NCBI GenBank assembly: GCA_018302765.1 | Contig: JAGVZG010000001.1 | Location: 4,482 to 68,481 of the forward strand | Source: Candidatus Woesearchaeota archaeon | GTDB lineage: Archaea > Nanobdellota > Nanobdellia > SCGC-AAA011-G17 > GW2011-AR18 | Length of the DNA stretch: 64,000 bases | Direction of reading: 5' to 3' | Part shown: positions 17,451 to 57,021 of the stretch, piece after piece | How the letters are laid out: each line of letters opens with the position of its first letter | Numbering within the stretch: the first letter of the stretch is position 1 | Position numbers and translations under genes: made by a program | The notes under the pieces: generated by a model | Seen by the model: only the letters and a program-made list of their open reading frames with translations | Told to the model about the DNA's origin: nothing | The model's database searches: none

Positions 17451-17753
17451 TTATGTATACTTAATTTTAATCTTATTATACAAAAATTTTGAAATCTTAA
17501 GTAGAAATGGAACAATAATTAATAATATAATAATTATTTTGTTAAAATTCCTACTTAAGAAAGCAGATTTTTCTGTCAGAGTGCTTAGTAAAATAATGAT
17601 AAAAACAATAGAGAATAGAATTACATTAGCAATTATTATGATTATTAGTAGAGAATGGTCTTTCTTTTTTTGAATGTGTTTATTGTTTGTTAATTTTATC
17701 AGTTCTGTCTGCTTATTGACAATTTCTTTTATTGCTTCTTTTATTTTAACCAT
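17451..17753 (-). CDS. small membrane protein
   Basis: Two strongly hydrophobic helices. Confidence 0.35.
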   Translation of the reverse strand: MVKIKEAIKEIVNKQTELIKLTNNKHIQKKKDHSLLIIIIIANVILFSIVFIIILLSTLTEKSAFLSRNFNKIIIILLIIVPFLLKISKFLYNKIKIKYT

Positions 17754-17791
17754 TTCTGTTTTATGTTTTTTGTCAGTAAACTATATAAATT

Positions 17792-19898: not shown

Positions 19899-20021
19899 GC
19901 CCTGGTAGTGTAGTGGTTAGCACAGAGCCCTGTCGATGTAAGCTTTTAGGAAAGGCTTGAAAAAACTTTGCTAAACAATAGATAGGCTCTAACTCGAGTT
20001 CAAATCTCGGCCAGGGCGCCA
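19899..20021 (+). tRNA. tRNA-Asp (anticodon GUC) with one ~48-nt intron; CCA encoded
   Basis: GCCCUGG acceptor, GUGUAGUGGUUAGCAC D-arm and CCUGUC anticodon region, all close to the archaeal tRNA-Asp consensus. T-arm UCGAG-UUCAAAU-CUCGG. The 3' end is CCAGGGC-G-CCA. Confidence 0.8.
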
Positions 20022-21162: not shown

Positions 21163-21390
21163 ATGGCAGAAGTTACAACAATACAATTGGATAAATCAAT
21201 ATTAGAGAATTTAAAAAAGTCTAAAGAATACCCAAGGCAAAGCTATAATGAATTAATAGTGCATATGCTAGAAATTTTTAAAAATATAAAATCTAAAAAT
21301 CAATATGATGAATTTTTACATAAAATACAGCAACAGAAAATGAGAGAGCTTTGGGACAATGAGAAAGATGAGGTTTGGAATAATGTTTAA
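21163..21390 (+). CDS. putative antitoxin (small DNA-binding protein) of a MazEF/PemIK-like pair
   Basis: 75 aa. Its stop overlaps the toxin ORF. A TATA-like tataggtactatataa lies upstream. Confidence 0.4.
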   Translation: MAEVTTIQLDKSILENLKKSKEYPRQSYNELIVHMLEIFKNIKSKNQYDEFLHKIQQQKMRELWDNEKDEVWNNV

Positions 21391-21697
21391 GTCAGGTGAC
21401 TTAGTAATAGCAAGAGTTCAATATACAGATACTTATGAAGTAAAAACAAGGCCTGCTATAGTTTTGTTTGAGGAATATGACAATGTCGTTATTGCAGGAG
21501 TGACAAGCAATTTGAATATGAAAGGAATACCTTTAACTAAAAAGGAAGGAGCAGTGGAAGATAGTATAATAAAATTAAATTATATATTTACAGTATCTAA
21601 TGCTATGATATCAAAAAAACTATTTCATTTGAGTTTAGAAAAGAAGAGATTAATTTATGAAGAGTTAAATAAAAAATTAGGTGGTTTGAAAAATTAA
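21383..21697 (+). CDS. PemK/MazF-like endoribonuclease toxin
   Basis: The pattern MFKSGDLVIARV...KTRPAIVL...VIAGVTSN matches the PemK/MazF core (GDi..v.f....g.E...RPavVl....v..apiTS). Confidence 0.55.
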   Translation: MFKSGDLVIARVQYTDTYEVKTRPAIVLFEEYDNVVIAGVTSNLNMKGIPLTKKEGAVEDSIIKLNYIFTVSNAMISKKLFHLSLEKKRLIYEELNKKLGGLKN

Positions 21698-26203: not shown

Positions 26204-26204
26204 T

Positions 26205-26648
26205 ATGGATGAATATTCATTAGAAAGAATGGATGGCGGAGGCAAATTGAGTTTACCTAACGGCGGATTTTATAACTTAAGAGTAGCAGAACATAATAGT
26301 TTTTTATTACTGCTAGACATTTCTCATTATCAAGGATCTGTTTTTGGTTTGAATATTTACCCTCATCATGACGGTATTGTTTGTGGCACTAATAAACCAG
26401 ATGGACTTGAAATTTGTGGATCTTATTTAGTTAATAAAATCATTGTAGGAGCTGATAGATTGGGAGGTCTAGATAATGCAGAACTTGATAGATTTCATAG
26501 TTATATTATAAGAAAGAATAGAGACATGTCTTTTGATTTAGGAAGATTAGTTGAACTAAGAGACACTGAGAAATGGTTAATGAGAAGAGACGACTTTCCA
26601 AGTTTTAAAACTTTTTTAAGCGGAGTTATTAGGAGGGCAAAGAGCTGA
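26205..26648 (+). CDS. hypothetical protein inserted between rpoB' and rpoA'
   Basis: 147-aa ORF packed between the rpoB' stop (26203) and the rpoA' start (26650). No motifs recognised. Confidence 0.45.
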   Translation: MDEYSLERMDGGGKLSLPNGGFYNLRVAEHNSFLLLLDISHYQGSVFGLNIYPHHDGIVCGTNKPDGLEICGSYLVNKIIVGADRLGGLDNAELDRFHSYIIRKNRDMSFDLGRLVELRDTEKWLMRRDDFPSFKTFLSGVIRRAKS

Positions 26649-26649
26649 G

Positions 26650-29241: not shown

Positions 29242-29242
29242 A

Positions 29243-30358
29243 ATGTTACCGCAACACTTAATTGCTAAAGTTGAGGATTATTCAAAGAAGTATAAAATTA
29301 GTGATAAGGACCAGAAGGAGATTTTAAAGAGAGTTGAGGAAATTTATAACAAAGCTAAAATTTCTCCTGGTGAATCTATTGGAGTAATTACTGCTGAGAG
29401 TTTTGGTGAACCTAGTACCCAAATGACGTTGAATACATTTCACTTTGCAGGTGTGGCAGAGATGAACGTTACTGTTGGCCTGCCAAGACTGATAGAAATA
29501 TTTGACGCAAGAAAGAGGCCAAGCACCCCAAGAATGGAAATTCCGATAAAATCTAAATATTCCAGGACTGTTGAAGCAGTAAGAGAAGTTGCTATGAAGA
29601 TTAAGGAAACTAAATTGGGAGACATAGCACAGGAAATTTCTATTAATATAGCCAAAGCTACAATTGAAATTGTTTTAGATAAGAAGAAGATGAGGGATTT
29701 GGACATTAAACCAAAATTAGTTCTAGACAAAATAGCAGAGGGATTAAAGAGTGTTGATGTTAAGGATAATGATAGTTCTGTAATACTTAAATCTAAAGAA
29801 AAAGAAATATCTTTGTCTGAAGTTTATAAATTGAAAGAGAAAGCAAAGTCAATCCACATAAGAGGTTTACAGGGAGTTACTCATGTTTTACCTGTCAAGG
29901 GAGATGATGGTAATTATATTATACATTGTGCTGGAAGCAATTTAAAAGACGCTTTGCTTTTAGAGGAAGCTGAAAAAGAGAGAATAATGACTAACGATAT
30001 TTTTGAAATTTCTGATGTTTTAGGCGTAGAAGCTGCTAGAGCTGCCATAATCAATGAAGCTAATAAAGTTATAAAAGATCAAGGCATTGATATAGATATC
30101 AGGCACGTAATGTTTTTAGCTGATGTCATGACAAGAAGCGGTACTGTAAAGGGTGTAACTAGAACAGGAATTGTTGGAGAAAAAGAGAGCGTATTAGCTA
30201 GAGCTAGTTTTGAAACTCCAATTAAACATATAGTTAATGCTAGTTTAGTAGGCGAGAAAGATAATTTGAATAGTGTTGTTGAAAATGTTATAATAAATCA
30301 ACCAGTTCCTCTTGGCACTGGATTGCCTGGCTTAATTGCCAAAATGAAGAAGGACTAA
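29243..30358 (+). CDS. rpoA2: DNA-directed RNA polymerase subunit A''
   Basis: Rpb1 C-terminal trigger-loop region (GVAEMNVTVGLPRL...). Starts 1 nt after the rpoA1 stop. Confidence 0.95.
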   Translation: MLPQHLIAKVEDYSKKYKISDKDQKEILKRVEEIYNKAKISPGESIGVITAESFGEPSTQMTLNTFHFAGVAEMNVTVGLPRLIEIFDARKRPSTPRMEIPIKSKYSRTVEAVREVAMKIKETKLGDIAQEISINIAKATIEIVLDKKKMRDLDIKPKLVLDKIAEGLKSVDVKDNDSSVILKSKEKEISLSEVYKLKEKAKSIHIRGLQGVTHVLPVKGDDGNYIIHCAGSNLKDALLLEEAEKERIMTNDIFEISDVLGVEAARAAIINEANKVIKDQGIDIDIRHVMFLADVMTRSGTVKGVTRTGIVGEKESVLARASFETPIKHIVNASLVGEKDNLNSVVENVIINQPVPLGTGLPGLIAKMKKD

Positions 30359-30360
30359 AC

Positions 30361-30609
30361 ATGAAAGCTGATTTACTAGATGATCTGAAAAAGAAAAAAC
30401 CATTTTTAGGACTGGATATCGCGCTTAAGAAAATTAGAAATGGAAAGATAAGCAAGGCTTATGTTTCTTCTAATAGTGGCGCTAAGAATCAGCTAGTTAG
30501 GCTATGCAAAACAATAGGTGTTGAGGTTATTTTATTACAGGAATCTAGCAAAGATCTGGGAATTATTTGCAAAAAACCGTTTTCTGTTTCAGTAATAAGT
30601 TTTGAGTAA
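30361..30609 (+). CDS. rpl30e: ribosomal protein L30e
   Basis: Short L7Ae/L30e-fold protein in the conserved position after rpoA''. Confidence 0.75.
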   Translation: MKADLLDDLKKKKPFLGLDIALKKIRNGKISKAYVSSNSGAKNQLVRLCKTIGVEVILLQESSKDLGIICKKPFSVSVISFE

Positions 30610-30611
30610 AT

Positions 30612-31019
30612 ATGAAATTAACTTTAGATTCTATAAATAATATTAACTTATTTGAGAACTTAACTAGAGCTAAGGTTAAAGACTGTTTTCAGGAAGATGG
30701 CGTTCTTGTTTTTTTAGTTGAAGAGGGCAATGTTAAGAAAGCTTTAGGAAAAGACAGTTCAAATATTGATAGAATCAGCAAAATACTAAAAAAAGATATT
30801 AAAATTATTGCTTTTTCTAATGATATTTGCAAATTTGTTAGTAATTTAATATATCCAAATAAGGCTGACGAGATAAAATTAGAAGGCAAAACTGTTTTTA
30901 TAGTTGCCAGTGATGTTGGTGTCAAGGGAAGAATATTTGGCAGGTCAAGAGAAAATCTAAAGAGAATAAATTCCTTAGTTAGAAATTATTTCGACGTGGA
31001 AGAAGTTAAAGTTGTATAA
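30612..31019 (+). CDS. nusA: archaeal NusA-like KH-domain transcription factor
   Basis: 135 aa with a KH-domain pattern (GKDSSNIDRISKILKKDIKI). Sits in the conserved position after rpl30e. Confidence 0.75.
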   Translation: MKLTLDSINNINLFENLTRAKVKDCFQEDGVLVFLVEEGNVKKALGKDSSNIDRISKILKKDIKIIAFSNDICKFVSNLIYPNKADEIKLEGKTVFIVASDVGVKGRIFGRSRENLKRINSLVRNYFDVEEVKVV

Positions 31020-31035
31020 TAAAAAGAAAAATAAT

Positions 31036-31686
31036 TTATATTTTTCTTAAACAGTATCTTGCATTTGCGCTTTTACAATTACCCATACTATTTACTTCTA
31101 AGTTTCCAATTTTTTTATTGCTTGTATTTCTTGGACTTAAGTAAAATGGTGCGTCAACGCCTATTATTTTTCCTGTATATTTTTCAGCTGTCATTAGTTG
31201 TGTTACTCTTGCCATGCTTAAGTACTCTCCAACGCCTAGACCCCAAACAGCAACTGTTCCTTCTTTTCCTATTTCATGAGCACTAATAATTAATATTTGA
31301 TGTCCTTGTGCTGGATACAATCCTATTGTACCTGGTTCAGCTTTAGCCACTGCTTCATCTTTTTTGCTGTAAGTTCTATAAGCGCCAGTTTCTGTAACTA
31401 ATCCACTCCATGAGTTCATTACATCATTTGCATATGATAAAGAACTTCCACAAAGTTCTTCTGCTACAGTTACTGGGTCTCTGGAAAAGAAATCTGGTGC
31501 ATAGAGATGTGTTCTTCCTGCATTTACTAGTGCTTCTGGAAGTTGGCCTAATGTTTTCTCATCGCCTTCCCTCATATTTTTTAATAATCTTTCTAAATTG
31601 TTATCTAGTTCAATACCCATTCCTAATAGTCTTCTTCTTGTTAAATTTGCAAATGCTTCTAATAATTGGTTTTTTCCCATTGCCAT
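31036..31686 (-). CDS. hypothetical protein, last gene of the five-gene SNF2-helicase operon
   Basis: 216 aa with a Gly-rich core (GTIGLYPAQGHQILIISAHEIGKEGTVAVWGLGVGEY). Family not recognised. Confidence 0.45.
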   Translation of the reverse strand: MAMGKNQLLEAFANLTRRRLLGMGIELDNNLERLLKNMREGDEKTLGQLPEALVNAGRTHLYAPDFFSRDPVTVAEELCGSSLSYANDVMNSWSGLVTETGAYRTYSKKDEAVAKAEPGTIGLYPAQGHQILIISAHEIGKEGTVAVWGLGVGEYLSMARVTQLMTAEKYTGKIIGVDAPFYLSPRNTSNKKIGNLEVNSMGNCKSANARYCLRKI

Positions 31687-31687
31687 T

Positions 31688-32782
31688 TTATTCTCCTTGC
31701 CTGATAATTGTTACAGGCATTCTATGATTAATGTTGAAATCTTTGAACTTTCCCATAATCTCAAACTTTCTTCTTACCCTATTCAGAACCTCTTTTTCTT
31801 CGTCTGATGTTACTGCAATGTTGTTGTCAATATCTCTTAAAACATCATCATGACTTACATCAGGTTTTCTATAAAGATTTAAATATCTTTCTGTTAATGT
31901 TTTTTCTATTCTTGCTTTTAATACATCTTTAATATTGAATGCTTGATAAGATAATATTTTTCTTTTTCTATTTGCAGCTACTGCACTCCAGTCTATACTT
32001 ACGTTATTTCCATTTACTCTTACTCTTCTTGGCCCAGGTATGTAGACTTTGCTAGTGCGTTCTGGCTTTACTATAAATAAATTATTACCATTTGCATATT
32101 TTAGATACAGTGCTAATAAATTCTCATCTGGTTCTGTTTCTTTATACGTTAATGCAGAACAGTGCAATAATTTTGCTCTTTCTGAAAGTTCTGAGTTTGC
32201 TATACTAAATATTCCATCTTCTAAGTCTTCTTCACCATATCTATATACCAATCTTGTTGTTAAATTTAGGTAAGTTCCTTGTGGTTTTGCTGTTGGTATG
32301 ATTTTTTCCTTTGTTATGTCATATCTGAGTAAAAAATTAAATAAGTCTATTTTCTCATCTAACTTTCTTTTTTCTTTTAGCTCTGCATAAATTTCTAGCA
32401 CTTCTTCGATTAATCTTTTGTCTGAGACAACAGCAACTGCATCTTCTATTTTTGAGTAACTTGCATTTTCTAATGCTTCTGTGTAAACTTTTTCAATTAA
32501 ATCTCTGTTTGCCATCGACAGCATTGAAAAGTGACCTACTGTTGACGTTGCTTTTGGAATGAGTGATTCTGGTTTTTTAGCTTCTTCTTTGCTTATTCTA
32601 AATGTTTCTGGAATAAATTCTCTATATGAATTTGCAACACTGTACTCTCCTAATTTATCACAGTTCCAGAAAAATGCGAACGACCATAAGTTATATGTTC
32701 TGTCATACTTAGCAGTACCATAAGTTGCTAACATTATGTCAGCAAGTTCTGCAGCTTGTTGGTTGTATTTTTCTCTTTCCAT
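31688..32782 (-). CDS. hypothetical protein, gene 4 of the operon
   Basis: 364 aa. 1-nt spacing to both neighbours, which implies translational coupling. Confidence 0.45.
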   Translation of the reverse strand: MEREKYNQQAAELADIMLATYGTAKYDRTYNLWSFAFFWNCDKLGEYSVANSYREFIPETFRISKEEAKKPESLIPKATSTVGHFSMLSMANRDLIEKVYTEALENASYSKIEDAVAVVSDKRLIEEVLEIYAELKEKRKLDEKIDLFNFLLRYDITKEKIIPTAKPQGTYLNLTTRLVYRYGEEDLEDGIFSIANSELSERAKLLHCSALTYKETEPDENLLALYLKYANGNNLFIVKPERTSKVYIPGPRRVRVNGNNVSIDWSAVAANRKRKILSYQAFNIKDVLKARIEKTLTERYLNLYRKPDVSHDDVLRDIDNNIAVTSDEEKEVLNRVRRKFEIMGKFKDFNINHRMPVTIIRQGE

Positions 32783-32783
32783 T

Positions 32784-35700
32784 TTATTCTTCTGCCAGTT
32801 TTCTTAGCACTGCTGCCAGTCTTGATAATTCCTCTTCTGGTGTTTCTCTTATTGTTTCTCCGAGTGCTAATATCTCTGGATGTATTGGTTCTCCTTGCGT
32901 TGGTTTTATTTTTGTAGGCTCTATATCTGTATCTATATTTAAGAATCCTGAACATTCATATCTTCTGAATTTTGCTTCTTTTTTTATTATTTCTGCTTCA
33001 TTTTGGGTTCCATCTACTATTTTGTATTCTTCTAACATTCTAAAGTAATGCCCTTCTTCATATCTTGACTTCTTGTCATCTATTTTTTTTGCTACAATTA
33101 CATATGCTTCAAACCCATTTCTCTTTTCTTCGCCTGTATCTATGTCAATAGACTTCATTGATTTGTAAGTTCCAGTTAATTGCCTGTCTATTTCAAAGCC
33201 AATTTCAGTCATATCTTTAATGAACTGTTCCCTGCAACTTATATCTATCTTTGATGTTGGTTCTATAATTAACATATAACTACCATTTTTCATTACTCTT
33301 TTATTTTCAGTGAAGTATTGTTTTCTTTCTTCTTCTGTTGCAAAATCCAAGGCCAAAGAACATACAATTAGATCCTTAGACTTTTCTTCCAAGCTTTCTG
33401 TTTTTTCATATTTCTTTTTCGGATCAAACACTTTGTTCTCTTGTGAATGAGGGACTAGATTTCTTAGGTCTGTGTAAGAACCCAAATAATATTTGTTTTC
33501 TTTATTTCCTTTTTCTTCACATGCATCTATTCCATAATCTAATTGAAATCTATTTACATCTATGCATATAGTTTTTCTTTCTAAAATTCTTGATACTGTT
33601 GCTGGGCCAGAACCTTCATCCAGTATGTCTTCAAGTTTTCTTCCTATTTTATTTTCTAGTCCTAGAATAATATCCCTTGCCAGTCTTGCACAATTGGATG
33701 AGAAACTGTATTCCCATGCGTAGTTATAATTTTTTGCTAGGAACATTGCATTGTCATGCGCACTCATTTCCTCTACAAATCTTTCTACACCTCTGCCCCT
33801 GAGATTATTAAACATTAATGCAACTATGCTTCTTGAGTTTAAATTCAACAAACTACCAATTTCTGCTGATTTCTCTGGTTTTGTATCATCTATGAAAGCA
33901 TTTATTTCCTCTGGTGTTGCATCTTCTCCCTTGAACACTAGGTTTATTAAATATGCCTTCCAGTCTCTGAATTTATACTTTGAATCTTCAAACGTGTTTA
34001 CTGCTCTTGGTTGATGTACTTCAACTTCATTATGTTTTCCAGATCTTACAATTCTGGCTAATAATTGTTCAAATCTTGCCGGTACTGTTGTAGCTTCATA
34101 TTCTATTAGCATATCTGCTTCCTGAACATCTGCTCCTTCTCTTAGTGTTCCATAGCTTACTGATAATACTGTTTTTGCTGGGTTAGTTTGAAATTCTAAT
34201 AAAGCTAGATCCCTTTGTGATGGATCCCATATTTCATAGTTTCTAATTTCTAATCTTTGTCTTGCTGCGAGAGATAGATCAGATCTGAATTTTTGTCCTT
34301 CTTCATAAAGCCCTTCTGATCTTAATGTTTCAATTTCTTCATTTTTTAATTGTATTTCTACTGGCTGTGCTGATACTGTCTGATCTATTCTTACACACCC
34401 ATATTCAGCTAGTTTTTCCTCTAGAAAACTTGTCAGATTAGTTGAATATTCACATGCAACAATAACTTTTTTATTGTCTTTTTTTGCTTTTTTTATTATT
34501 TCTACTGTTGTTTGTAACTTGCTTGGAATGGTATTTTCTGCATATTCTCTTAATTTTGGATTTATTTCAAAGAATCTTTCTATTTTATTTTTTAATGAGT
34601 CTTGTCTTTCACTATCTGTAAAGTTATCAGGAAGCAGCTTTTTTGGATTTGTAAGTAGATAATTTAATAGTAAGTATCTCTCTCTACCTTCAAATAATGT
34701 TGAGTTTATTATTTCTATATACAAGTCTGTTTCTTTTTCTGTTAATTCATAATTAACATTTATGAGAATTGGTTCTTTTACATCTGGATCTACATCTTTT
34801 AGTTCCCTGATTGGATTTGAATGTATGTCCAGTACTGCCCTTACTATTTTTGGATTGTCCCTAAATACTGCAGTGAAATCTTTAGGGTTATCTATAATAC
34901 CCATTAGATAAAATTCATAGGCTATATTTGAAACATAGTTTCTAATTCCTGTTCCGCTTACCAATGTTCCCCATTTTGAATATCTGAATAATTCTCCAAG
35001 GGCTATTGCAGTTGCTGAATCAGGATCTATTACATTGTGTATTTCATCATATATGACATAGTAAGGCTTACCATCTGCTCTGAATGCCTGCTGTCTTAAC
35101 GCTGTTGCAATGCTTGCAGCTTCTGCATTTTTTTCTTCGATTACTATTCTTTTCAGCAAAGCATCTAGACTTCTTTCTTTTCTTGTATATTCTTTAAAAT
35201 GATCTTCTATCATTGAATTTCTGAGAATTTCCAATGCCCTTTCTTTTGTGTAAACAGTTGTTAGAAGTTCTATGTATTTCTCTTCCATTTCTGCTGCAGT
35301 TTCTGGATCACTTATATCTATGCCTGTTCTTCTATGGCTCAGTTCATAACCTAGCAACACAAGATCTACGTCTTCTCTTGCTGCTTTTTTTATAGAATAT
35401 CTTCTATTTCTTCTTGTAACTACACTGATATTTGGATCTTTTAATAACCTTTCTGCTTCTCTGATCCATGTTGGAATTATATACGTTGGACAGCATATCA
35501 ATGTTTTAACTTTGCCATTTTCTCCAAGTTCTTTCATAAAAACTTCATTAATTATGGGTATTGCAGACAGAACCCCAATAGTTTTTCTTGTTCCTGGCTT
35601 GCTAAACTCAAATCTTTTTTTGCCTTCCATTCCAGATAATGCTATTTCTGTTGCTGCTAGTTGTTGTTCTGGAGATGGAATGTCTACAGTTGATGCATCA

Positions 35701-35888
35701 AAATAAGTATCTCTTCCTAAATTATTAAATATATTTTCTATCCCGCCAAATTCTTCTGCTTCTTGTATTATTTGTGATCCATATGGGAATTGTTCTAGAA
35801 AATGTTTGTTTGGAATGAATCTTAATCTATTCAAAACTCTGCTTATTCCTTGCTCTAGTTCTATAAGTTTCTGAGGTTCTATTTGCAT
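32784..35888 (-). CDS. SNF2-family helicase (degenerate P-loop) fused to a C-terminal Rossmann/MTase-like domain
   Basis: SNF2 N-lobe has KPGTRKT in place of GLGKT, LICCPTYIIPTW, a DEIH box and LVSGTGIRNY (the SNF2 LSGTPIQN-like motif). C-lobe motif VI is GADVQEADMLIEYEATTVPARFEQLLARIVRSG. The C-terminal ~350 aa contain ILDEGSGPATV...CIDVN (SAM-MTase motif I / post-I-like). Confidence 0.7.
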   Translation of the reverse strand: MQIEPQKLIELEQGISRVLNRLRFIPNKHFLEQFPYGSQIIQEAEEFGGIENIFNNLGRDTYFDASTVDIPSPEQQLAATEIALSGMEGKKRFEFSKPGTRKTIGVLSAIPIINEVFMKELGENGKVKTLICCPTYIIPTWIREAERLLKDPNISVVTRRNRRYSIKKAAREDVDLVLLGYELSHRRTGIDISDPETAAEMEEKYIELLTTVYTKERALEILRNSMIEDHFKEYTRKERSLDALLKRIVIEEKNAEAASIATALRQQAFRADGKPYYVIYDEIHNVIDPDSATAIALGELFRYSKWGTLVSGTGIRNYVSNIAYEFYLMGIIDNPKDFTAVFRDNPKIVRAVLDIHSNPIRELKDVDPDVKEPILINVNYELTEKETDLYIEIINSTLFEGRERYLLLNYLLTNPKKLLPDNFTDSERQDSLKNKIERFFEINPKLREYAENTIPSKLQTTVEIIKKAKKDNKKVIVACEYSTNLTSFLEEKLAEYGCVRIDQTVSAQPVEIQLKNEEIETLRSEGLYEEGQKFRSDLSLAARQRLEIRNYEIWDPSQRDLALLEFQTNPAKTVLSVSYGTLREGADVQEADMLIEYEATTVPARFEQLLARIVRSGKHNEVEVHQPRAVNTFEDSKYKFRDWKAYLINLVFKGEDATPEEINAFIDDTKPEKSAEIGSLLNLNSRSIVALMFNNLRGRGVERFVEEMSAHDNAMFLAKNYNYAWEYSFSSNCARLARDIILGLENKIGRKLEDILDEGSGPATVSRILERKTICIDVNRFQLDYGIDACEEKGNKENKYYLGSYTDLRNLVPHSQENKVFDPKKKYEKTESLEEKSKDLIVCSLALDFATEEERKQYFTENKRVMKNGSYMLIIEPTSKIDISCREQFIKDMTEIGFEIDRQLTGTYKSMKSIDIDTGEEKRNGFEAYVIVAKKIDDKKSRYEEGHYFRMLEEYKIVDGTQNEAEIIKKEAKFRRYECSGFLNIDTDIEPTKIKPTQGEPIHPEILALGETIRETPEEELSRLAAVLRKLAEE

Positions 35889-35893
35889 TTTTA

Positions 35894-37525
35894 TTATGTT
35901 GCATCTTTATTCTCACCAGTTCTTTTTTCTATTTCATCAACAAAGTACTGCCTGTTTATTCCAATGTATGATCTTAATAGTCTAACTAAATATGTACCAC
36001 ATTCAGTTAATGGTCTTTCTTCATATCTTATTGATGTAAATCTGCCTTTATCTTTATCTAGTAATGAATCATATAATGTTCTGCCAAAAGTACTGCATTC
36101 TCCTTGCGTGTTTAATTCAGTCTTTTTTTCATCAAATACGCCTTTCTCTAATTGTTTTACAAATGCTTTTTTGAGAAGCCTATCGTACAAGTCATATCTT
36201 TCTATTAAATTTCCTATGCCATCTGTGTATTCATTCATTGCACCTCCAATAGTTCTTGGTTCTGATCCTTTATCTGTTTCTTTTTCCATTACACCTTCCA
36301 TCCATAATCCCGCAACCAAAAATCTGAAAAATATTTTATCATAAGAATGATCAGGATCTATAACTAATCTGCCAAGATCAGATACTGCTTCAAATATCTT
36401 ATCTCTAGATGACCTTTCGTCTTCTGTTGTTCTTAACTTAGGCAAAATGTTCTTTTGTATATATTCATCATTTTTTATATAATCAGCAGCTTTCGCATAA
36501 GCAACCCATTTAGCTGTGCTTGAAATATATCTCTTAAAATCTTCCTTACTCATTTCTATTCCAGTTCTTTTTACTGAATATAGTACGTCCAATGCTAATT
36601 GCCTAAAACATATAACAAAGTGTTCTCCTTTATCATCCAATCTTTTGGATATTTTTTTATCAATGAATCTTTTATACAATGGAAGAACTGATTCTGATTT
36701 TTCACATAATTCTCTTAGTTTTTTCTTTTCGCGATCTTCTCTTATTATATATTCAAGCAGAACTTCTCCAGCTGTTTTCCTTATATCTTCCTTTTCTATT
36801 ATTTCAGTTATAACTCTTTTAGTTTTACGGCTTATTTCTCCTCTGTGTTTTGCAACGTATGACGTTATTGATTCTACTTCTATTGTTAAACCTAAATTTG
36901 TTGCTGTTTCTAAAAATGCTGGGTCATTTATTATTTCTTCTAGGTCGTCTCTATTTGTGAATGTACGTGTTTTTTTAATTTTCTCAGGATTAGCTAAAGC
37001 AAAGAATGCCAGTGCGTCTGCATTTTCAATTAAGTAAGTATCTAGTGCTTGGTCTCTAACATATCCTGGTTTGTCTTTTGTTGGTTTAAAGGTTGGCTTT
37101 CCTTTTTTACCTGTCTTTTTCTTTTTAGCTGAGTCTATACGGTTTGATGTGTCAAGCATTGTTGAATAAGCTAATATGTCTGTAATTTCATCTAAACCTT
37201 GTTGCGGGTCTGATAGGTCTAAATTTCCATCTTGGCCTTTTGTGAGTATGACCTTTCCACCTTTCATAATTGTTACATAGTAAATATTACTTCCAGGTAT
37301 TCTCATCATTACAATTTTGGTATCTGATCCTGAATTTCCAGTTGGTTCTTCTGAAGTTGTTGTTCTTGCAAGTGGATCTAATCTATGCAATAATTCTTCT
37401 AGTTCTCTTCTATCTTGTGGCCTTTTTGTATCTATATTACCATCTACTGCTAATCTAACTAATTCATGATAACTAAGTCTTTCCTGTCTTGCAAAATCTT
37501 TTAGTGTTATTTTACCGTCTGTCAT
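35894..37525 (-). CDS. hypothetical protein with an N-terminal wHTH-like segment, gene 2 of the operon
   Basis: 543 aa. N-terminus is ITLKDFARQERLSYHELVRLAV. No NTPase motifs. Overlaps the upstream gene by 4 nt. Confidence 0.45.
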   Translation of the reverse strand: MTDGKITLKDFARQERLSYHELVRLAVDGNIDTKRPQDRRELEELLHRLDPLARTTTSEEPTGNSGSDTKIVMMRIPGSNIYYVTIMKGGKVILTKGQDGNLDLSDPQQGLDEITDILAYSTMLDTSNRIDSAKKKKTGKKGKPTFKPTKDKPGYVRDQALDTYLIENADALAFFALANPEKIKKTRTFTNRDDLEEIINDPAFLETATNLGLTIEVESITSYVAKHRGEISRKTKRVITEIIEKEDIRKTAGEVLLEYIIREDREKKKLRELCEKSESVLPLYKRFIDKKISKRLDDKGEHFVICFRQLALDVLYSVKRTGIEMSKEDFKRYISSTAKWVAYAKAADYIKNDEYIQKNILPKLRTTEDERSSRDKIFEAVSDLGRLVIDPDHSYDKIFFRFLVAGLWMEGVMEKETDKGSEPRTIGGAMNEYTDGIGNLIERYDLYDRLLKKAFVKQLEKGVFDEKKTELNTQGECSTFGRTLYDSLLDKDKGRFTSIRYEERPLTECGTYLVRLLRSYIGINRQYFVDEIEKRTGENKDAT

Positions 37526-40230
37526 TGTGGTCTTAAATCTCCGAAATATTTTAATTCTATTTTTGCTCCAACTTTAGCTAGGTCAGACGATTCAAGTTTT
37601 TTCCTTGTTGTATCTATTAATTTTGATAATCTCTCTGGTGTTGTTTGCCTATACACTAATTCTATATAATAACAATTACGTAATTCTCCTGTTTTTATTT
37701 CTGCATTTCTTCCCTTTAGTGTTGAGGCCAATGCTAGTGAAAAATCTAATGCTGCATTACTCCTGAAGTTTTGATTGTTTGTTGGTATTACAAATCTTAA
37801 TCTATATCCATCTTTTTCTTGTACGTGATAAGAGAAACAGCCGAAAGTTGCATTTAATGGTATTCTTTTTCTAAATTCTGATGTTTCATCTAAAGCTTTG
37901 TTATGCATTATTTTTATATTATCTATTTCATTTAATAATGCTTCTTCTTCTTCTTTTATTCTATAATGTTCTTTTTTTGCATCATTGTAATGTCTTATCA
38001 ATTCTCTTGCTGCTCTTTCATCTTCATTTAAAGATTCATCTTTTCTATGCTTAAATGTTCTCTCTGCTAGTGTAGCCATTTTATATGCAAGATTATGCTC
38101 TTCTGCATATCCAGTTTGGTCGAATTCAACATTATAATATTTCAATTTTTCAGATAATTCATCTATAGTCAATTCTCTATTTCTTAATTTTGGATCAATC
38201 TCTATTAATCTACTTCCTAATTTTTCATATATTAGTTCTTTTAGATCTGTTTGTGCAATTACTAGATTTTCAGGTATTCCTTCTGGGAATAGTTTATTAT
38301 ATTCTTCAATTGCTGCATTTAGTTCTGGTGAATAGACTTTTCTAAATGCTTCAACTAAAATTTCTTCTGCTGTAAGATTTACAATTGAATTTTCTTTTAC
38401 TAACATTTCTAATTCTGACTTTTCTTTTTCTAATGCTGTTGCTATTTCTTTTAGTTCTTCAAGTCTAGCTTCTGTTTTTATAAGTTTTTGTTCTTCTACT
38501 TTAGCTGCTTCTCTTAGTTTTGCTTCAGCAGCACTTACTGTTTCTCTTCTTTTTTCTTCTATTGCTGCTAACAATCCTGATTTATAATTTGCTAAATCTT
38601 TATCATTATCTAATTTAGTTTCAAATGGTGATTTGTGGTTAACACTTATTGCAATTTCATGTAGAAGTGCTTCTATTGAAGTAGCGTATGTATTTGCATT
38701 TCTTGACTCTTTCTTTGCTTCAGTTATTCTTCTCTTATTTTCATCTAATGCTGCTAACAATCCTTGAGTGTATGTTGCAAGTTTTGTTTTACTTTTTGGC
38801 TCTATTTCAGTTTTGTATTCTACTGCTTCAGCTATATTTGCTAATAATACCAATACACTATCTATGTAAATGTTTGTTCTTTCTAATTCTTGTTTTTTCC
38901 CTTCAAGTTCTTCTTCTATTCTTCTGAATCCTGCAACTTTATTTTTAGACTTTTCAAATTCTGTTGTTCCTTCAGCTCCGAATGTTTTTTCATACTCTTG
39001 TAATCTTCTTGTAAAGTCACCTTTATCTTGTTCTTTTTTGCTATAAATTTCTTTATCATCTCTTACAAGTTCTAGGATATCTTTTAATGGAGTAATTTCA
39101 GCTTTTCTTTTTGGTAGATTTGTTCTTATTGCATCTGCTATAAGATCTGCATCTAATGTTGTATTTTGTACCCTAAATCCTATAACTTTCTTTGTAAGTC
39201 CTTTTGGGTCATTATTTGCTGTTATTTTACCTAAATATACCATATTGTTATTTGGTTCTTTTTTATTAACAAGTTTTTTTAATTCTCTTTCTAATACACC
39301 AATATCGCTTGGTTTTTTTCTTTCTATTATGATATCATAGTGCTTATAACCATCTATTTTATTGTACGTTCTTGAACCACTTGCAACTTTTTTAGCTTTG
39401 TCTTTTGGTTCATTAGTTACTTCTGTTTTTTTTATCTGTATTTTTTCCCCTTTTAATGCATCCAGAATTCTAATGCTATACCTTTCGAATTGTTCATCAT
39501 TTAACATATCATTTTCAGTTGGTGTTGGTTCACCAAGATCTTCTGCGACAGCTGTTAATAGACCTTCTAAGTTTCCTCTATATTTTATTGATCTTTCTTT
39601 TTCTTCTATTATATTTCTTGTTAGTTCTTCTACTGCTATTTTTAATTTTTTTTCACCTTTTATTGTTCTTCTTTTTGGAAAATCATGGCCTACCGAAGTT
39701 GCAATTGTTTCTACAGAATCATAAATTGCATCAATTATTTCATTTAATGAAGTTGTTGCGCTTCTACATCTTTCTCCTATATTTGTTTTTATTGCTATGC
39801 CAAGTTCTTCAGTATAGCCAATTAAACCAGGTCTTTTTTCTAATTCTTTTGGCGTTGGAGTTCTATAATCTACAATACGTGCAAGAGTCTTGAATCCTTC
39901 TGCAAGTGCATTTAGATCTATATCTTTTGTTTCTTTAACTTCTGCTAATTCTGGCTTATCAACACACGTTATTGAAAATTCCCCAGTATCAAATCTTTTA
40001 GTTATTATTCTTCTTAGTGTGGCTTCATTTAAATCTCTACCTTCTATTTTTACACCAAATTTACGCTCTCTAGAATCTCTTAAATATTCTATATTAACTT
40101 TATCAATGTTTTTTCCAAACGAACAATCTATTAAATTTTTTAGTATACCTGCTGTTCTTGAATTGCCGCTTGTAACTCTAATTTCATAAATTCTTGCAGT
40201 TCTATTTTCTTGATTAGATGATGCTATCAT
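37522..40230 (-). CDS. large coiled-coil protein (no NTPase motifs), first gene of the operon
   Basis: 902 aa with long Glu/Lys-rich heptad regions in the middle (e.g. EELEGKKQELERTN, KLREAAKVEEQKLIKTEARLEELKE). No Walker A motif. A possible D-x6-EVK motif near the N-terminus. Confidence 0.5.
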   Translation of the reverse strand: MIASSNQENRTARIYEIRVTSGNSRTAGILKNLIDCSFGKNIDKVNIEYLRDSRERKFGVKIEGRDLNEATLRRIITKRFDTGEFSITCVDKPELAEVKETKDIDLNALAEGFKTLARIVDYRTPTPKELEKRPGLIGYTEELGIAIKTNIGERCRSATTSLNEIIDAIYDSVETIATSVGHDFPKRRTIKGEKKLKIAVEELTRNIIEEKERSIKYRGNLEGLLTAVAEDLGEPTPTENDMLNDEQFERYSIRILDALKGEKIQIKKTEVTNEPKDKAKKVASGSRTYNKIDGYKHYDIIIERKKPSDIGVLERELKKLVNKKEPNNNMVYLGKITANNDPKGLTKKVIGFRVQNTTLDADLIADAIRTNLPKRKAEITPLKDILELVRDDKEIYSKKEQDKGDFTRRLQEYEKTFGAEGTTEFEKSKNKVAGFRRIEEELEGKKQELERTNIYIDSVLVLLANIAEAVEYKTEIEPKSKTKLATYTQGLLAALDENKRRITEAKKESRNANTYATSIEALLHEIAISVNHKSPFETKLDNDKDLANYKSGLLAAIEEKRRETVSAAEAKLREAAKVEEQKLIKTEARLEELKEIATALEKEKSELEMLVKENSIVNLTAEEILVEAFRKVYSPELNAAIEEYNKLFPEGIPENLVIAQTDLKELIYEKLGSRLIEIDPKLRNRELTIDELSEKLKYYNVEFDQTGYAEEHNLAYKMATLAERTFKHRKDESLNEDERAARELIRHYNDAKKEHYRIKEEEEALLNEIDNIKIMHNKALDETSEFRKRIPLNATFGCFSYHVQEKDGYRLRFVIPTNNQNFRSNAALDFSLALASTLKGRNAEIKTGELRNCYYIELVYRQTTPERLSKLIDTTRKKLESSDLAKVGAKIELKYFGDLRPQ

Positions 40231-40390
40231 TTTATTTACTTTTTAGTGGTTAATATTCAGCTAATGCAGTAGAATTTAACTTATAAAACTTTCCATCTGT
40301 TAGTAGTAACTTTTCTTTTTATTATTACTATTATTATAATTTAGAAAATACTTTGTTAAAGGCAGTTTTGTTTAGAAAGTTATATAAACA

Positions 40391-42319: not shown

Positions 42320-42594
42320 TATTTATTTGCAGGCAGGCTGGAGAGCTCGTCCTACTCTGTAAGCACAAACGGACGTCATGGTGTAGCTGATGCTTGGTGG
42401 GCGGTGTTGCTATTGTGGTAGGTCTTAGTAACTACAATGATAATCTGTCTTGATTGGTTGAAGCAGTTATGAAATGTGTCAGGTCAGGAATGAAGCAGCA
42501 CTAAATGATTGCTCCAATGCTTTCAGGGTAGCGGATTTGAGGAATGGCTAGGGTAAACCTAACATGATAGGAATATCAACCTCTGGGCGCCTGC
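42320..42594 (+). ncRNA. ffs: signal recognition particle RNA (7S/SRP RNA)
   Basis: GC-rich island containing GUCAGGUCAGGAAUGAAGCAGC (the conserved domain IV motif GUCAGGUCCGGAAGGAAGCAGC). 5' GCAGGC pairs with 3' GCCUGC. Followed by a T-tract. Confidence 0.75.
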
Positions 42595-42600
42595 GTTTTT
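42595..42600 (+). terminator. oligo-T tract after SRP RNA
   Basis: gttttt immediately after the closing helix. Confidence 0.3.
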
Positions 42601-56314: not shown

Positions 56315-56374
56315 TACAATGAAAATTTATGAACCAACAATTGATATTTCTGATTTAAGACCGTCAGTTAAGTC

Positions 56375-56698
56375 TTGCGTAGATATATAACTTGTAAAGA
56401 AAGAGCACGATTAGATAGACTGGTTTTTGTACCTAAGTTAAGAAGAAAAGATACTGAAAATTTCGGAATAAACCATGGTAGTCCCATGTTTACTATTAGG
56501 GGTTTTCAATGTAGTTCTGAAGTTTATGAAATAAATCTTGATGATAAGTTATTAATTCAACATCGAGGTGGTTCTTTACTTTATGATTGCGATAAAGTTC
56601 CTGCTAAATGTGTTTATATATTTGAAAGAACAATAAATGAAGTTGTTGAAGAATTTATTATGGCAGACTATAGAGTTATTAAGGACTGGGGCTTGTAG
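56375..56698 (+). CDS. hypothetical protein
   Basis: 107-aa ORF. Confidence 0.3.
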   Translation: MRRYITCKERARLDRLVFVPKLRRKDTENFGINHGSPMFTIRGFQCSSEVYEINLDDKLLIQHRGGSLLYDCDKVPAKCVYIFERTINEVVEEFIMADYRVIKDWGL

Positions 56699-56754
56699 TC
56701 TTATATTTAAGGGGGAATTTTTGGTTAGAACCAACACTTTCAGAGATATTAACT

Positions 56755-57021
56755 TTGAGAAAGTACATTGAAGAGAACTTATCGATGGCAGGCAAGCAGT
56801 TAGGATTTTCTTCAGCAACAGTACATGAGCCTGTTGCAAGACTTTTTAATGATTATTATGGAATTGATTTTTATAGCTTGTATAAAAGAAGTGGGAAAAA
56901 TGGAAGGCCTGTTGTTCATTGCATTGGTGTACTTTTTTCAGGAGATGATTTTAGTATTGAATTTTCTGAAGAATTAAAATTATACCTTAAGAATATTCAA
57001 AGTGAATATCATTTTCCATAG
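56755..57021 (+). CDS. hypothetical protein
   Basis: 88-aa ORF. Confidence 0.3.
   Translation: MRKYIEENLSMAGKQLGFSSATVHEPVARLFNDYYGIDFYSLYKRSGKNGRPVVHCIGVLFSGDDFSIEFSEELKLYLKNIQSEYHFP

What the first reader, a model, noticed from the sequence alone, without database searches (positions are those of the whole stretch)
31036..40230. Five-gene, translationally coupled operon built around an SNF2-like helicase with a methyltransferase-like tail: candidate undescribed defence or DNA-modification system
Five minus-strand genes (902, 543, 1034, 364 and 216 aa) are packed with -4 to +5 nt spacing. They sit directly after nusA. In the conserved archaeal cluster rpsL–rpsG–fusA normally follow, and those genes are absent here. 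The only recognisable domain is an SNF2 helicase. Its Walker A is degenerate (KPGTRKT) and its C-terminal extension carries SAM-MTase-like motif I (ILDEGSGPATV) and a post-I Asp (CIDVN). The partners are a ~900-aa protein with central coiled-coil stretches and no NTPase motif, a wHTH-like 543-aa protein and two unknown proteins. This component set does not match DISARM, BREX, Dpd, Druantia or Zorya gene sets as I know them. The gene architecture (large helicase, putative modification domain, several unknown partners) is typical of defence islands.
Basis: partly seen in the sequence, partly recalled or inferred. Interest (0 to 1): 0.85.

Follow-up and report, generated by a model that had tools for sequence, protein, structure and literature searches.

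The report
Unannotated five-gene helicase–methyltransferase module
A tightly packed five-gene operon in a tiny DPANN archaeon is a real, conserved and so far unannotated module built around a DNA-motor/methyltransferase fusion and a glycosylase-like base reader; it behaves like a dispensable accessory system (possibly anti-virus defence), but its function is not shown.

Summary
The five minus-strand genes exist exactly as described (902/543/1034/364/216 aa; spacing -4, +5, +1, +1), convergent on nusA in a Candidatus Woesearchaeota genome. The same gene order recurs in every sufficiently long related locus (at least 11 genomes, helicase identity down to about 30%). Neighbours differ each time. 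In relative L010 the cassette lies between two genes that are adjacent, with no cassette, in this window.

Gene C is an SNF2 ATPase with invariant motifs I-VI. It is fused to a class-I Methyltransf_11/RRP8-like methyltransferase, not a DNA N6A/N4C/C5 type. A (coiled coil plus conserved C-terminal domain), B and D match nothing known.

The family is rare (about 27 full-length clusters among 1.84 billion representatives). It has no phage, plasmid or viral-contig relatives and no PADLOC system match. Codon usage equals the host's. A near-clonal population variant carries two nonsense mutations in gene C, so C is dispensable.

Best reading (confidence 0.45): an accessory, DNA-tracking methylation and base-sensing complex for telling self from foreign DNA. 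Defence is inferred, not demonstrated.

The parts
40281..40294 (-). Archaeal BRE/TATA-like promoter box GGAAAG-TTTTATAA, about 50 nt upstream of the gene A start codon
   Evidence: Read directly from the sequence. A GAAArnTTTATAA box sits at the equivalent position upstream of gene A in 8 of 9 aligned loci and also in L014.
40301..40307 (-). ACTACTA/TAGTAGT element about 20 nt upstream of the TATA box; possible operator or general promoter element
   Evidence: The exact 7-mer lies at -68 to -83 from the gene A ATG in 5 of 10 loci (binomial P about 5e-6, motif chosen post hoc). There are 11 further copies elsewhere in the window, so it may not be cassette-specific.
37522..40230 (-). Gene A, 902 aa: variable coiled-coil-rich N-terminal ~600 aa plus a conserved C-terminal ~300-aa domain of unknown fold; no NTPase motif
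   Evidence: only generic coiled-coil Pfam hits; conservation 0.2-0.29 over residues 1-600 against 0.37-0.43 over 601-900; no PDB relative; no Walker A. It is the fastest-evolving component, at 18-35% identity.
35894..37525 (-). Gene B, 543 aa: orphan protein with a conserved N-terminal ~125-aa region, a Lys-rich linker and a helical C-terminal part
   Evidence: no Pfam, NCBIfam or PDB match. Homologs occupy the same position in all loci, and a weak homolog is present in L014 (E 2e-5).
32784..35888 (-). Gene C, 1034 aa: SNF2-family ATPase fused to a C-terminal class-I SAM methyltransferase and a conserved C-terminal tail (RRYxCxxFxN..DTG)
   Evidence: Pfam SNF2-rel_dom, Helicase_C and Methyltransf_8/11/25; phrog_62 helicase E 5e-21; PDB 1z63 SsoRad54-like; family alignment and motifs.
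34713..35594 (-). Gene C residues 99-392: SNF2 lobe 1, with motif I SKPGTRKT, motif II DEIHN, motif III GTGIRN and a helical insertion (about residues 185-275)
34014..34526 (-). Gene C residues about 455-625: SNF2 lobe 2, with motifs V (GTLREG) and VI (QLLARxxRSGK/Q)
33084..33671 (-). Gene C residues about 740-935: class-I methyltransferase domain, with motif I ILDEGSGPA, motif II CIDVN, motif IV DLIVCSLALD and motif V/VI YMLIIEPTSK
   Evidence: Pfam (stronger in relatives, up to 52 bits). The nearest solved relatives are type-11 MTases 3sm3 and 3i9f and human RRP8 2zfu, E 1e-4 to 6e-4. No [DNS]PP[YFW] motif and no PCQ+ENV pair in any of 12 members.
31688..32782 (-). Gene D, 364 aa: mostly alpha-helical orphan with many invariant charged residues (N92 R93 D121 D146 R177 R181 E184 E188 H207 H353)
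31036..31686 (-). Gene E, 216 aa: N-terminal helical region (about residues 1-60) plus an AAG/MPG-like domain
31039..31503 (-). Gene E residues 62-216: AAG (alkyladenine DNA glycosylase)-like domain. The Y127 and Y159 equivalents are kept (Y103, Y124). The catalytic E125 position is Gly101. The H136 loop is deleted. The Y162 position is Gln. The family-invariant S135-A136-H137 has an unknown role.
31016..31035 (-). Oligo-T tract (ATTATTTTTCTTTTTATTAT on the coding strand) immediately after the gene E stop codon: probable archaeal terminator
   Evidence: T-runs follow the gene E stop codon in all eight loci examined.
56315..56986 (.). Empty site: the interval between window genes 54485-56314 and 56987-58315, whose homologs (83% and 64% identity) bracket the whole cassette in relative L010
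   Evidence: No A-E remnants were detected elsewhere in the window with the family HMMs.

Best explanation
The five genes encode one multi-subunit, ATP-driven nucleic-acid surveillance and modification complex. It is an accessory (dispensable) module of some DPANN archaea, most likely used to tell resident from foreign DNA, in the manner of BREX, DISARM or 'BR' systems.

Proposed working:
1. The SNF2 motor of gene C translocates along duplex DNA and carries its fused class-I methyltransferase along the substrate.
2. Gene E, an AAG-fold protein that keeps the base-stacking aromatic residues but lacks the water-activating glutamate, flips out purines. It reads their modification state, or excises them through a non-canonical active site.
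3. Gene A (long coiled coil plus conserved C-terminal domain) and genes B and D act as scaffold, DNA-binding or regulatory subunits.

Shown here: operon structure; conservation of the five-gene set; domain identities of C; AAG-superfamily relationship of E; rarity; relocation; dispensability of C.

For: Operon: tight coupling, a single BRE/TATA box upstream of gene A and an oligo-T tract after gene E.

Conserved module: the same A-B-C-D-E order occurs in the window, L001, L002, L005, L006, L008, L009, L010, L014 and the P0043 locus, and in part in L011, L012 and the P0009 locus. All five proteins are homologous across loci.

Enzymes look active: helicase motifs I-VI and methyltransferase motifs I, II and IV are conserved across 12 members down to 32% identity.

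E is AAG-like.

Partners travel with the fusion: D-like and E-like proteins also accompany more distant SNF2-MTase fusions (L015, L016), which points to a functional core of motor-MTase plus AAG-like plus D.

Accessory behaviour:
- About 27 full-length clusters and 94 hits below 1e-30 among 1.84 billion representatives.
- Flanks differ between loci. L010 carries the cassette at a site that is empty in the window, even though the flanking genes are 64-83% identical.
- A 99.97%-identical population variant has E200* and S320* in gene C as practically its only differences over 15 kb.

Precedent: SNF2 ATPases coupled to DNA methylases are a recurrent theme of R-M, anti-restriction and BREX-related systems (PMC5512222; PMC12839542).
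Against: - No nuclease, PLD, HKD, PglZ or other effector was detected.
- PADLOC gives no system-level match.
- The methyltransferase belongs to the Methyltransf_11/RRP8-like group, whose characterised members act on RNA, proteins or small molecules, not to a DNA N6A/N4C/C5 class.
- Flanks are housekeeping genes, without defence-island neighbours or mobility genes, except a short integrase about 1 kb upstream in L006.
- Codon usage and GC3 equal the host's.
- Pairs of relatives that share a flank (window/L001, L002/L009) show cassette divergence similar to flank divergence, which indicates vertical inheritance over those distances.
- The AAG assignment of E rests on a pLDDT-65 model and sub-threshold sequence scores, and Foldseek did not find AAG.
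- The nonsense allele was read directly in one assembly, with a second inferred from protein fragments.
Confidence: 0.45

Rival explanations
1. A cellular chromatin, epigenetic or DNA-repair complex. On this reading an SNF2 remodeller with a fused methyltransferase and an AAG-derived lesion or base-binding subunit serves genome maintenance or gene regulation in a subset of DPANN lineages, with no role in conflict with viruses.
For: - The cassette always lies in chromosomal housekeeping surroundings.
- Its codon usage equals the host's.
- Related genome pairs indicate vertical inheritance.
- AAG is a repair-enzyme family.
- No effector nuclease was found.
- SNF2 proteins such as SsoRad54 are cellular in archaea.
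Against: - The family is very sparse.
- The whole cassette relocates as a unit and leaves an empty site.
- Gene C is knocked out by two nonsense mutations in a near-clonal variant.
- Gene A evolves fast, at 18-35% identity.
- The catalytic Glu of AAG is missing in all members, so canonical repair activity is unlikely.
Confidence: 0.25
2. A domesticated or resident mobile-element module of the DarB-like 'methylase-helicase dyad' type. In those elements an SNF2 ATPase plus methylase protects the element's own DNA (anti-restriction) or behaves as a selfish, addictive unit.
For: - The best family hit for the helicase part is phrog_62, a phage 'DNA helicase' family (E 5e-21).
- SNF2-methylase coupling is typical of phages, plasmids and conjugative elements (PMC5512222).
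- The cassette moves between chromosomal sites.
- A short Phage_integrase gene lies about 1 kb upstream in L006.
- A perfect 15-nt inverted repeat brackets the cassette in the window.
Against: - No relatives were found in IMG/VR viral contigs, in 50,697 phage records or in 72,556 plasmid records.
- There are no capsid, replication, conjugation or transposase genes in any locus.
- The inverted repeat is absent from the other seven loci.
- Composition equals the host's.
- The methylase is not the adenine-N6 type found in DarB-like proteins.
Confidence: 0.1
3. An RNA- or RNP-directed machine. On this reading the RRP8-like methyltransferase modifies rRNA, tRNA or another RNA, or a protein, while the SF2 motor remodels an RNP or RNA polymerase in the manner of RapA. 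The AAG/FMT-C-like domain would bind RNA.
For: - The nearest solved methyltransferases include the rRNA m1A enzyme RRP8 (2zfu, E 5e-4) and generic type-11 MTases.
- Pfam's best methyltransferase model is Methyltransf_8.
- Several loci lie next to transcription or translation genes: the rpo operon and nusA here, L37ae, RpoP and prefoldin in L002, and Rpb7, Spt4 and S24e in L008.
- SNF2 member RapA acts on RNA polymerase (PMC5512222).
Against: - DPANN genomes consist largely of information-processing genes, so such neighbours are expected by chance, and they differ between loci.
- Characterised SNF2 ATPases track duplex DNA (PMC5512222).
- The sequence signature of E matches the DNA glycosylase family specifically.
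- A housekeeping RNA-modification role fits poorly with the rarity and the natural knockout.
Confidence: 0.1

Closest known systems
BREX-related 'BR' systems and type 3 BREX (Swi2/Snf2 helicase + N6-methyltransferase + nuclease; PMC12839542)
   Same: A multi-gene operon centred on a Swi2/Snf2-family ATPase combined with a SAM methyltransferase. It also has fast-evolving, non-enzymatic partner proteins and is found in archaea as well as bacteria.
   Different: - Here the methyltransferase is fused to the helicase and is a Methyltransf_11/RRP8-like class-I enzyme without an NPPY-type motif.
- No TUDOR, REase, HKD, PglZ, BrxC or BrxA components were detected.
- The partners are an AAG-like protein and three orphans.
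DISARM class 1 (DrmA, DrmB, DrmC, DrmD SNF2, DrmMI)
   Same: An SNF2-like helicase together with a methyltransferase in a five-gene operon.
   Different: The only PADLOC signal is a weak DrmD hit to helicase lobe 2 (E 1e-3). No DrmA, DUF1998 (DrmB) or PLD (DrmC) was found.
DarB-like methylase-helicase dyad of phages, plasmids and conjugative elements (PMC5512222)
   Same: An SNF2 ATPase and a methyltransferase sit in one polypeptide. The helicase part matches phage family phrog_62.
   Different: - In DarB-like proteins the methylase is an adenine-N6 DNA methylase and the protein belongs to a mobile element.
- Here the methylase class differs.
- The context is chromosomal, and no phage, plasmid or viral relatives exist.
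AAG/MPG alkyladenine DNA glycosylase (human AAG, PDB 1ewn)
   Same: - The N-terminal signature FFxRD..VA..LxG...TxAY.
- The equivalents of the base-stacking residues Tyr127 and Tyr159.
   Different: - Catalytic Glu125 is Gly, Ala or Ser in all 11 relatives examined.
- The His136 loop is deleted.
- The intercalating Tyr162 is not aromatic.
- There is an extra N-terminal helical domain.
- Scores are below the Pfam gathering threshold (20.8 against 27 bits).
- Canonical glycosylase chemistry is therefore unlikely.
Restriction glycosylases of the R.PabI family (PMC10273834)
   Same: The concept only: a methyltransferase paired with a base-flipping, base-excising protein as an 'epigenetic immune system'.
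   Different: R.PabI has the unrelated HALFPIPE fold, works as a two-gene R-M pair with an N6A methylase, and has no ATPase. No homology to gene E is claimed or found.
Dnmt5-type SNF2-methyltransferase fusions of eukaryotes (bioRxiv 10.1101/2020.01.05.895227, listed)
   Same: An SNF2 ATPase and a methyltransferase lie in one chain, with ATP hydrolysis proposed to gate methylation.
   Different: Dnmt5 carries a C5-cytosine DNMT domain and is eukaryotic. Here the methyltransferase is a different class, and the domain order and partners differ.

Membership tests
SNF2/Swi2 family of SF2 ATPases | Two RecA-like lobes with helicase motifs I, II (DExH), III (TGTPxxN-like), V and VI, and helical insertions in lobe 1 | tested here: met
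   - Pfam SNF2-rel_dom 27.5 bits (cut-off 24.9) and Helicase_C 31.7 bits (cut-off 23.5).
- PDB 1z63, E 1.4e-4.
- DEIHN, GTGIRN and Q..R..RSGQ are invariant or nearly so.
- Motif I is the unusual but conserved PGTRKT, with Arg in place of the second Gly.
Class-I SAM-dependent methyltransferases (Methyltransf_11/25/8 group) | Rossmann-like fold with motif I (D/E-x-G-x-G), an acidic residue at the end of beta-2, and motif IV after beta-4 | tested here: met
   - Methyltransf_8 27.8 bits (cut-off 27) in the window protein.
- Methyltransf_11 at 26-52 bits in relatives.
- Motifs are conserved, except motif I in the P0010/P0011 clade.
DNA amino-methyltransferases (N6A/N4C) and C5-cytosine methyltransferases | Catalytic (D/N/S)PP(Y/F/W) motif IV, or the PCQ plus ENV motifs | tested here: not met
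   No [DNS]PP[YFWH] motif in any of 12 family members. PSQ or ENV strings are sporadic and unaligned. The nearest PDB relatives are type-11 MTases and RRP8.
AAG/MPG (Pur_DNA_glyco, PF02245) DNA glycosylases | The AAG fold | tested here: inconclusive
   [not shown]
AAG/MPG (Pur_DNA_glyco, PF02245) DNA glycosylases | Score above the Pfam gathering threshold | tested here: not met
   20.8 bits against a cut-off of 27, matching only profile positions 1-44 of 181. 7 of 8 members hit below threshold.
AAG/MPG (Pur_DNA_glyco, PF02245) DNA glycosylases | Catalytic general base Glu125 and intercalating Tyr162 (human numbering; residue roles from my own knowledge of the AAG literature) | tested here: not met
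   The hhalign alignment places Gly, Ala or Ser at position 125 and Gln, Glu, Arg, His or Asn at position 162 in all members, and the His136 loop is deleted. Its register was checked at 7 published residue positions.
DISARM | DrmA helicase, DrmB (DUF1998) and DrmC (PLD) core genes | tested here: not met
   PADLOC and Pfam scans of all five proteins gave only a weak DrmD hit (E 1e-3) on gene C.
BREX | PglZ phosphatase, BrxC ATPase and PglX N6-methyltransferase | tested here: not met
   No PADLOC or Pfam hits to any of these.
Dpd (7-deazaguanine DNA modification) | DpdA transglycosylase together with the DpdB-K set | tested here: not met
   Only a DpdE helicase-core hit on gene C (E 2.4e-5, 56 residues).
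BR (BREX-related) systems, PMC12839542 | Swi2/Snf2 helicase with N-terminal TUDOR and inactive REase domains, a separate N6-MTase, and an HKD or PD-(D/E)xK effector | tested here: not met
   The SNF2 core is present. No TUDOR, REase or HKD domain was detected by Pfam or PADLOC, and the methyltransferase is not the N6 type.
Mobile genetic element (virus, plasmid or integrative element) | Integrase, replication or structural genes; terminal repeats; compositional deviation; relatives on viral or plasmid records | tested here: not met
   The exceptions are a single short integrase near L006 and a 15-nt inverted repeat found only in the window.
Anti-phage defence system (functional class) | Protection against virus or plasmid infection; enrichment next to other defence genes | not testable with these tools
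   No experiment was possible. Neighbourhoods in 11 loci show no known defence genes.

The most novel reading that the evidence does not exclude
The module is a new kind of nucleic-acid immunity or epigenetic system that works through ring-nitrogen purine methylation. The SNF2 motor drives an RRP8-like (m1A-type) methyltransferase along DNA. An AAG-fold subunit, from the one enzyme family specialised in recognising N-methylpurines, then reads or excises the marked (or unmarked) bases. Foreign DNA would be flagged or destroyed by base excision rather than by a nuclease. The three orphan proteins would be new scaffold or sensor folds.
Probability: 0.15. Interest if true: 0.85.

Novelty: new variant of a known kind. 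Interest (0 to 1): 0.62.

Why it matters
- DPANN archaea have tiny genomes and few recognised defence or epigenetic systems. A 9.2-kb conserved operon, about 1% of such a genome, with no annotation is a substantial unexplained investment.
- If it is a defence or modification system, it would add a helicase-methyltransferase architecture with a non-DNA-type methyltransferase and a catalytically altered AAG-fold subunit. That suggests base flipping or base excision as the read-out in place of a nuclease.
- It would also give a function to a wider, unannotated set of SNF2-Methyltransf_11 fusions (459 representatives below E 1e-10).
- The intact and nonsense alleles coexist in public groundwater metagenomes. 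This offers a rare natural experiment for an uncultivated organism.

Tried and rejected
1. Sequence-profile searches of the A, B, D and E families, of the gene A C-terminal domain and of the gene B N-terminus against PDB gave nothing significant.
2. Scans of every member of the A, B and D families against Pfam gave only generic coiled-coil hits for A and nothing for B or D.
5. Internal repeats in gene A (N-terminal, middle and C-terminal alpha/beta-looking segments) were tested by hhalign, and none was found.
6. Terminal repeats as insertion scars: a perfect 15-nt inverted repeat brackets the cassette in the window (0 of 100 shuffles reach it). No comparable repeat exists in seven other loci, so I treat it as AT-rich promoter/terminator sequence.
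7. Compositional test for recent transfer: negative.
8. Viral contigs, phage records and plasmid records: no relatives.
9. I first read the 706-aa fragments as three independent disrupted alleles. L018 and L019 proved to be contig-edge truncations identical to the window, so only L017 and the P0179/P0180 contig count.
10. The TAGTAGT upstream element as a cassette-specific operator: weakened by 11 other copies in the window.
11. Literature searches for this gene set found no description.
A and B could not be modelled because only two jobs were allowed.

Full report
**Observation.** The window holds five minus-strand ORFs at exactly the stated coordinates: A 37522-40230 (902 aa), B 35894-37525 (543), C 32784-35888 (1034), D 31688-32782 (364) and E 31036-31686 (216). 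The spacing is -4, +5, +1 and +1 nt, with AGGAG-like ribosome-binding sites inside the preceding genes. Upstream on the + strand lie rpoB''/rpoB', an unassigned 147-aa ORF, rpoA'/rpoA'', an 82-aa ORF and a KH-domain NusA (30612-31019). NusA ends 16 nt from the stop codon of gene E, in convergent orientation. On the other side are an RDD protein, an S49 peptidase, SRP RNA (42326-42597), an FmrO-like methyltransferase and a Toprim protein. None of the larger ORFs scanned up to about 53 kb is S12, S7 or EF-2. Genes C and D are 100% identical to 'hypothetical protein' entries J4230_00250 and J4230_00245 of a Candidatus Woesearchaeota archaeon.

**The cassette is a conserved module.** A word-indexed search with C found 13 clusters, all archaeal or DPANN, at 71-32% identity. 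Every related contig long enough to show it has the same five genes in the same order:
- L001 (816/534/1031/365/214 aa)
- L002-4 (904/647/1057/390/271)
- L005 (908/522/1067/372/238)
- L006/7 (1040/579/1032/370/295)
- L008 (781/536/1081/370/240)
- L009 (1086/651/1037/371/270)
- L010 (671/547/1037/363/227)

The shorter contigs L011, L012 and the P0009 locus show the corresponding parts. BLASTP confirms that each of the five proteins is homologous across loci. Conservation ranks C (32-60% identity), then D (26-47%) and B (23-49%), then E (32-49%), then A (24-45% over partial alignments).

An exhaustive HMMER search of 1.84 billion representatives with the C profile found 94 proteins below 1e-30, about 27 of them full-length. 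Two of these more distant members were inspected, L014 (753/499/1005/386/207 aa) and the P0043 locus (728/494/1010/383/237 aa). Both again show five genes of matching sizes. In L014, where DNA was available, B, C, D and E are detectable with the family HMMs.

**Context and mobility.** Flanking genes are ordinary archaeal housekeeping genes, and they differ from locus to locus. Two pairs of loci share one flank:
- Window and L001: RDD 62% and S49 peptidase 65% identity, against C 61%, D 51%, B 49% and E 44%.
- L002 and L009: M24 peptidase 52% and M16 peptidase 65%, against C 65%, D 52% and E 53%.

Over those distances the cassette seems to have been inherited vertically. In L010, by contrast, the cassette lies between homologs of window genes 56987-58315 (phosphoglucomutase, 64% identity) and 54485-56314 (83% identity). 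These two genes are convergent neighbours in the window, with only a 107-aa ORF between them. The module has therefore changed chromosomal position as a unit among fairly close relatives, and the window contains the corresponding empty site.

No insertion scars were found. A perfect 15-nt inverted repeat (31016-31030 and 40311-40325) brackets the cassette in the window, but nothing comparable exists in seven other loci. GC, GC3 and synonymous codon usage of all five genes fall within the range of 23 host genes. No relatives were found in IMG/VR contigs, phage records or plasmid records.

**Gene C.** Pfam finds SNF2-rel_dom (residues 99-392), Helicase_C (556-617) and Methyltransf_8/11/25 (828-903). 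The helicase part matches phage family phrog_62 (E 5e-21) and the Sulfolobus SNF2/Rad54 structure 1z63. Across 12 members the following are invariant or nearly so: motif I S-K-P-G-T-R-K-T, motif II DEIHN, motif III GTGIRN, motif V GTLREG and motif VI Q..R..RSGQ/K. The odd Walker A is a fixed family trait, not decay.

The methyltransferase has motif I (ILDEGxGPA), the motif II aspartate (CxDxN), motif IV (DLxVCSLAL) and EPTSK. It has no [DNS]PP[YFW] motif and no PCQ/ENV pair. Its nearest solved relatives are generic type-11 methyltransferases and human RRP8, the rRNA m1A enzyme (E 1e-4 to 6e-4). Its substrate cannot be read from the sequence. The P0010/P0011 clade has a degenerate motif I.

The same SNF2-Methyltransf_11/25 fusion occurs in a wider set of proteins of 780-1316 aa with other partners.

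**Gene E.** Several lines of evidence bear on the AAG assignment:
- The window protein hits the first 44 positions of Pfam Pur_DNA_glyco (E 2.6e-4, below threshold) and five NCBIfam 3-methyladenine glycosylase models.
- 7 of 8 family members give the same Pfam hit independently.
- Foldseek against PDB found nothing significant.
- hhalign of the family against human AAG gave E 2e-4.
- After adding three distant E-like ORFs from L014 and L015, hhalign gave probability 85%, E 6e-6 and score 43.9, against a maximum of 21 for 60 shuffles.

In that alignment Y127 and Y159, which stack on the flipped base, are retained as aromatic residues. Catalytic Glu125 is Gly, Ala or Ser in every member. The His136 loop is deleted. 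The intercalating Tyr162 is not aromatic. S135-A136-H137 is invariant in the family. I conclude that E belongs to the AAG superfamily but is not a canonical glycosylase. A base-binding 'reader' is the simplest reading, and an alternative catalytic set cannot be excluded.

**Genes A, B and D.**
- A has only generic coiled-coil hits, no P-loop, a variable N-terminal ~600 aa and a conserved C-terminal ~300 aa.
- B has no detectable domain, and the suggested wHTH was not confirmed.
- A D-like unit is repeated four times in the 772-aa partner of a distant SNF2-MTase (L016). Two AAG-like ORFs accompany another distant fusion (L015). D-like and E-like proteins therefore seem to be recurrent companions of this helicase-methyltransferase fusion.

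**Natural knockout.** Contig L017 comes from the same population (99.97% identity over window 24436-39485). Ignoring two mismatches in its last 15 nt, it differs from the window at only three positions. All three lie in a 410-nt stretch of gene C: S184R, E200* and S320*, all G:C to T:A changes. Protein fragments from a second assembly also stop at codon 320. Gene C is therefore dispensable in nature. Finding two nonsense changes among three substitutions hints at selection for loss, although the sample is tiny.

**Regulatory signals.** A GAAArnTTTATAA BRE/TATA-like box lies 30-57 nt upstream of the gene A start codon in most loci, and an oligo-T tract follows gene E in all eight examined. This fits a single transcription unit.

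**Interpretation.** The data establish a rare, autonomous, dispensable five-gene module with two probably active enzymatic activities (SNF2 ATPase and SAM methyltransferase) and an AAG-derived base-binding subunit. The combination of an SNF2 motor with a methylase is characteristic of R-M-like, BREX-related and anti-restriction systems (PMC5512222; PMC12839542). A methylase paired with a base-excising protein has a precedent in restriction glycosylases (PMC10273834). I therefore favour a DNA-tracking modification and base-sensing complex for discriminating self from foreign DNA (0.45). The rivals are a cellular chromatin or repair role (0.25), a mobile-element-derived module (0.10) and an RNA/RNP-directed machine (0.10).

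Against the defence reading stand four points: no identified effector, no PADLOC match, a methyltransferase that is not of a DNA-modifying class, and housekeeping surroundings with host-like composition.

The module is not a member of DISARM, BREX, Dpd or the BR systems, because their defining components were tested and are absent.

Noticed in passing
window 34930, 35291, 35337 (gene C) compared with L017 positions 4556, 4195, 4149: A 99.97%-identical population variant carries S320*, E200* and S184R in gene C. These are its only differences over 15 kb apart from contig-end mismatches, and all three are G:C to T:A transversions. A second assembly adds a Pro-to-Gln change, also C to A.
   Followed up: yes
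window 21359-21697 and 19899-20018: A MazF/PemK-like toxin ORF (Pfam E 7.5e-8) sits in the lowest-GC stretch of the window (about 19-23 kb, GC 0.28-0.29). Nearby is a 120-nt tRNA match from Rfam that ARAGORN missed, which is probably an intron-containing archaeal tRNA.
   Followed up: no
L016 165-2483: The 772-aa protein encoded directly upstream of a short (780-aa) SNF2-Methyltransf_11 fusion contains four tandem copies of the conserved core unit of gene D (D profile positions 118-183).
   Followed up: partly
L015 9001-18770 (Nanoarchaeota archaeon, GCA_042572295.1): A 1234-aa SNF2-methyltransferase is followed by seven small unannotated ORFs. Two of them (12702-13259 and 17681-18334) carry the AAG-like FFxRD..A..LLG...ASAY signature. 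A Holliday-junction resolvase Hjc gene follows. This may be a sister system.
   Followed up: partly
L001 10540-10648 and 1500-1619: The promoter region of gene A (ACTAATAAGAAACTA...TATAGAAAGATTTAT) is duplicated after gene E, in front of an unannotated 292-aa ORF (10649-11527) that has no homolog in the other loci. This may be an extra, co-regulated component in that genome.
   Followed up: no
window 31016-31030 and 40311-40325: A perfect 15-nt inverted repeat (ATAATAAAAAGAAAA / TTTTCTTTTTATTAT) brackets the cassette exactly (0 of 100 shuffles reach this length). It is not found at the cassette borders in seven other loci.
   Followed up: yes
window 40301-40307, and -68 to -83 from the gene A start in L001, L002, L005 and L014: A TAGTAGT/ACTACTA 7-mer lies about 20 nt upstream of the TATA box in 5 of 10 loci. 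The window holds 11 further copies, several of them apparently between genes, so this may be a general promoter-proximal element of these archaea.
   Followed up: partly
P0010 and P0011 (L008, L005), methyltransferase motif I: In this clade motif I reads VLSLASGPAS or VLSLAAGPAS, so the acidic residue and the first glycine are lost, while all helicase motifs stay intact. SAM binding may be weakened or lost there.
   Followed up: no
window 26205-26648: A 147-aa ORF between rpoB' and rpoA' has no Pfam match. The same ORF is present in L017.
   Followed up: no
L014 (GCA_030697685.1, labelled 'bacterium'): The contig carrying a distant copy of the cassette has an archaeal-type GAAAGGTTTATAAA promoter box upstream of gene A. 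The 'bacterium' label of the MAG may therefore be wrong.
   Followed up: no
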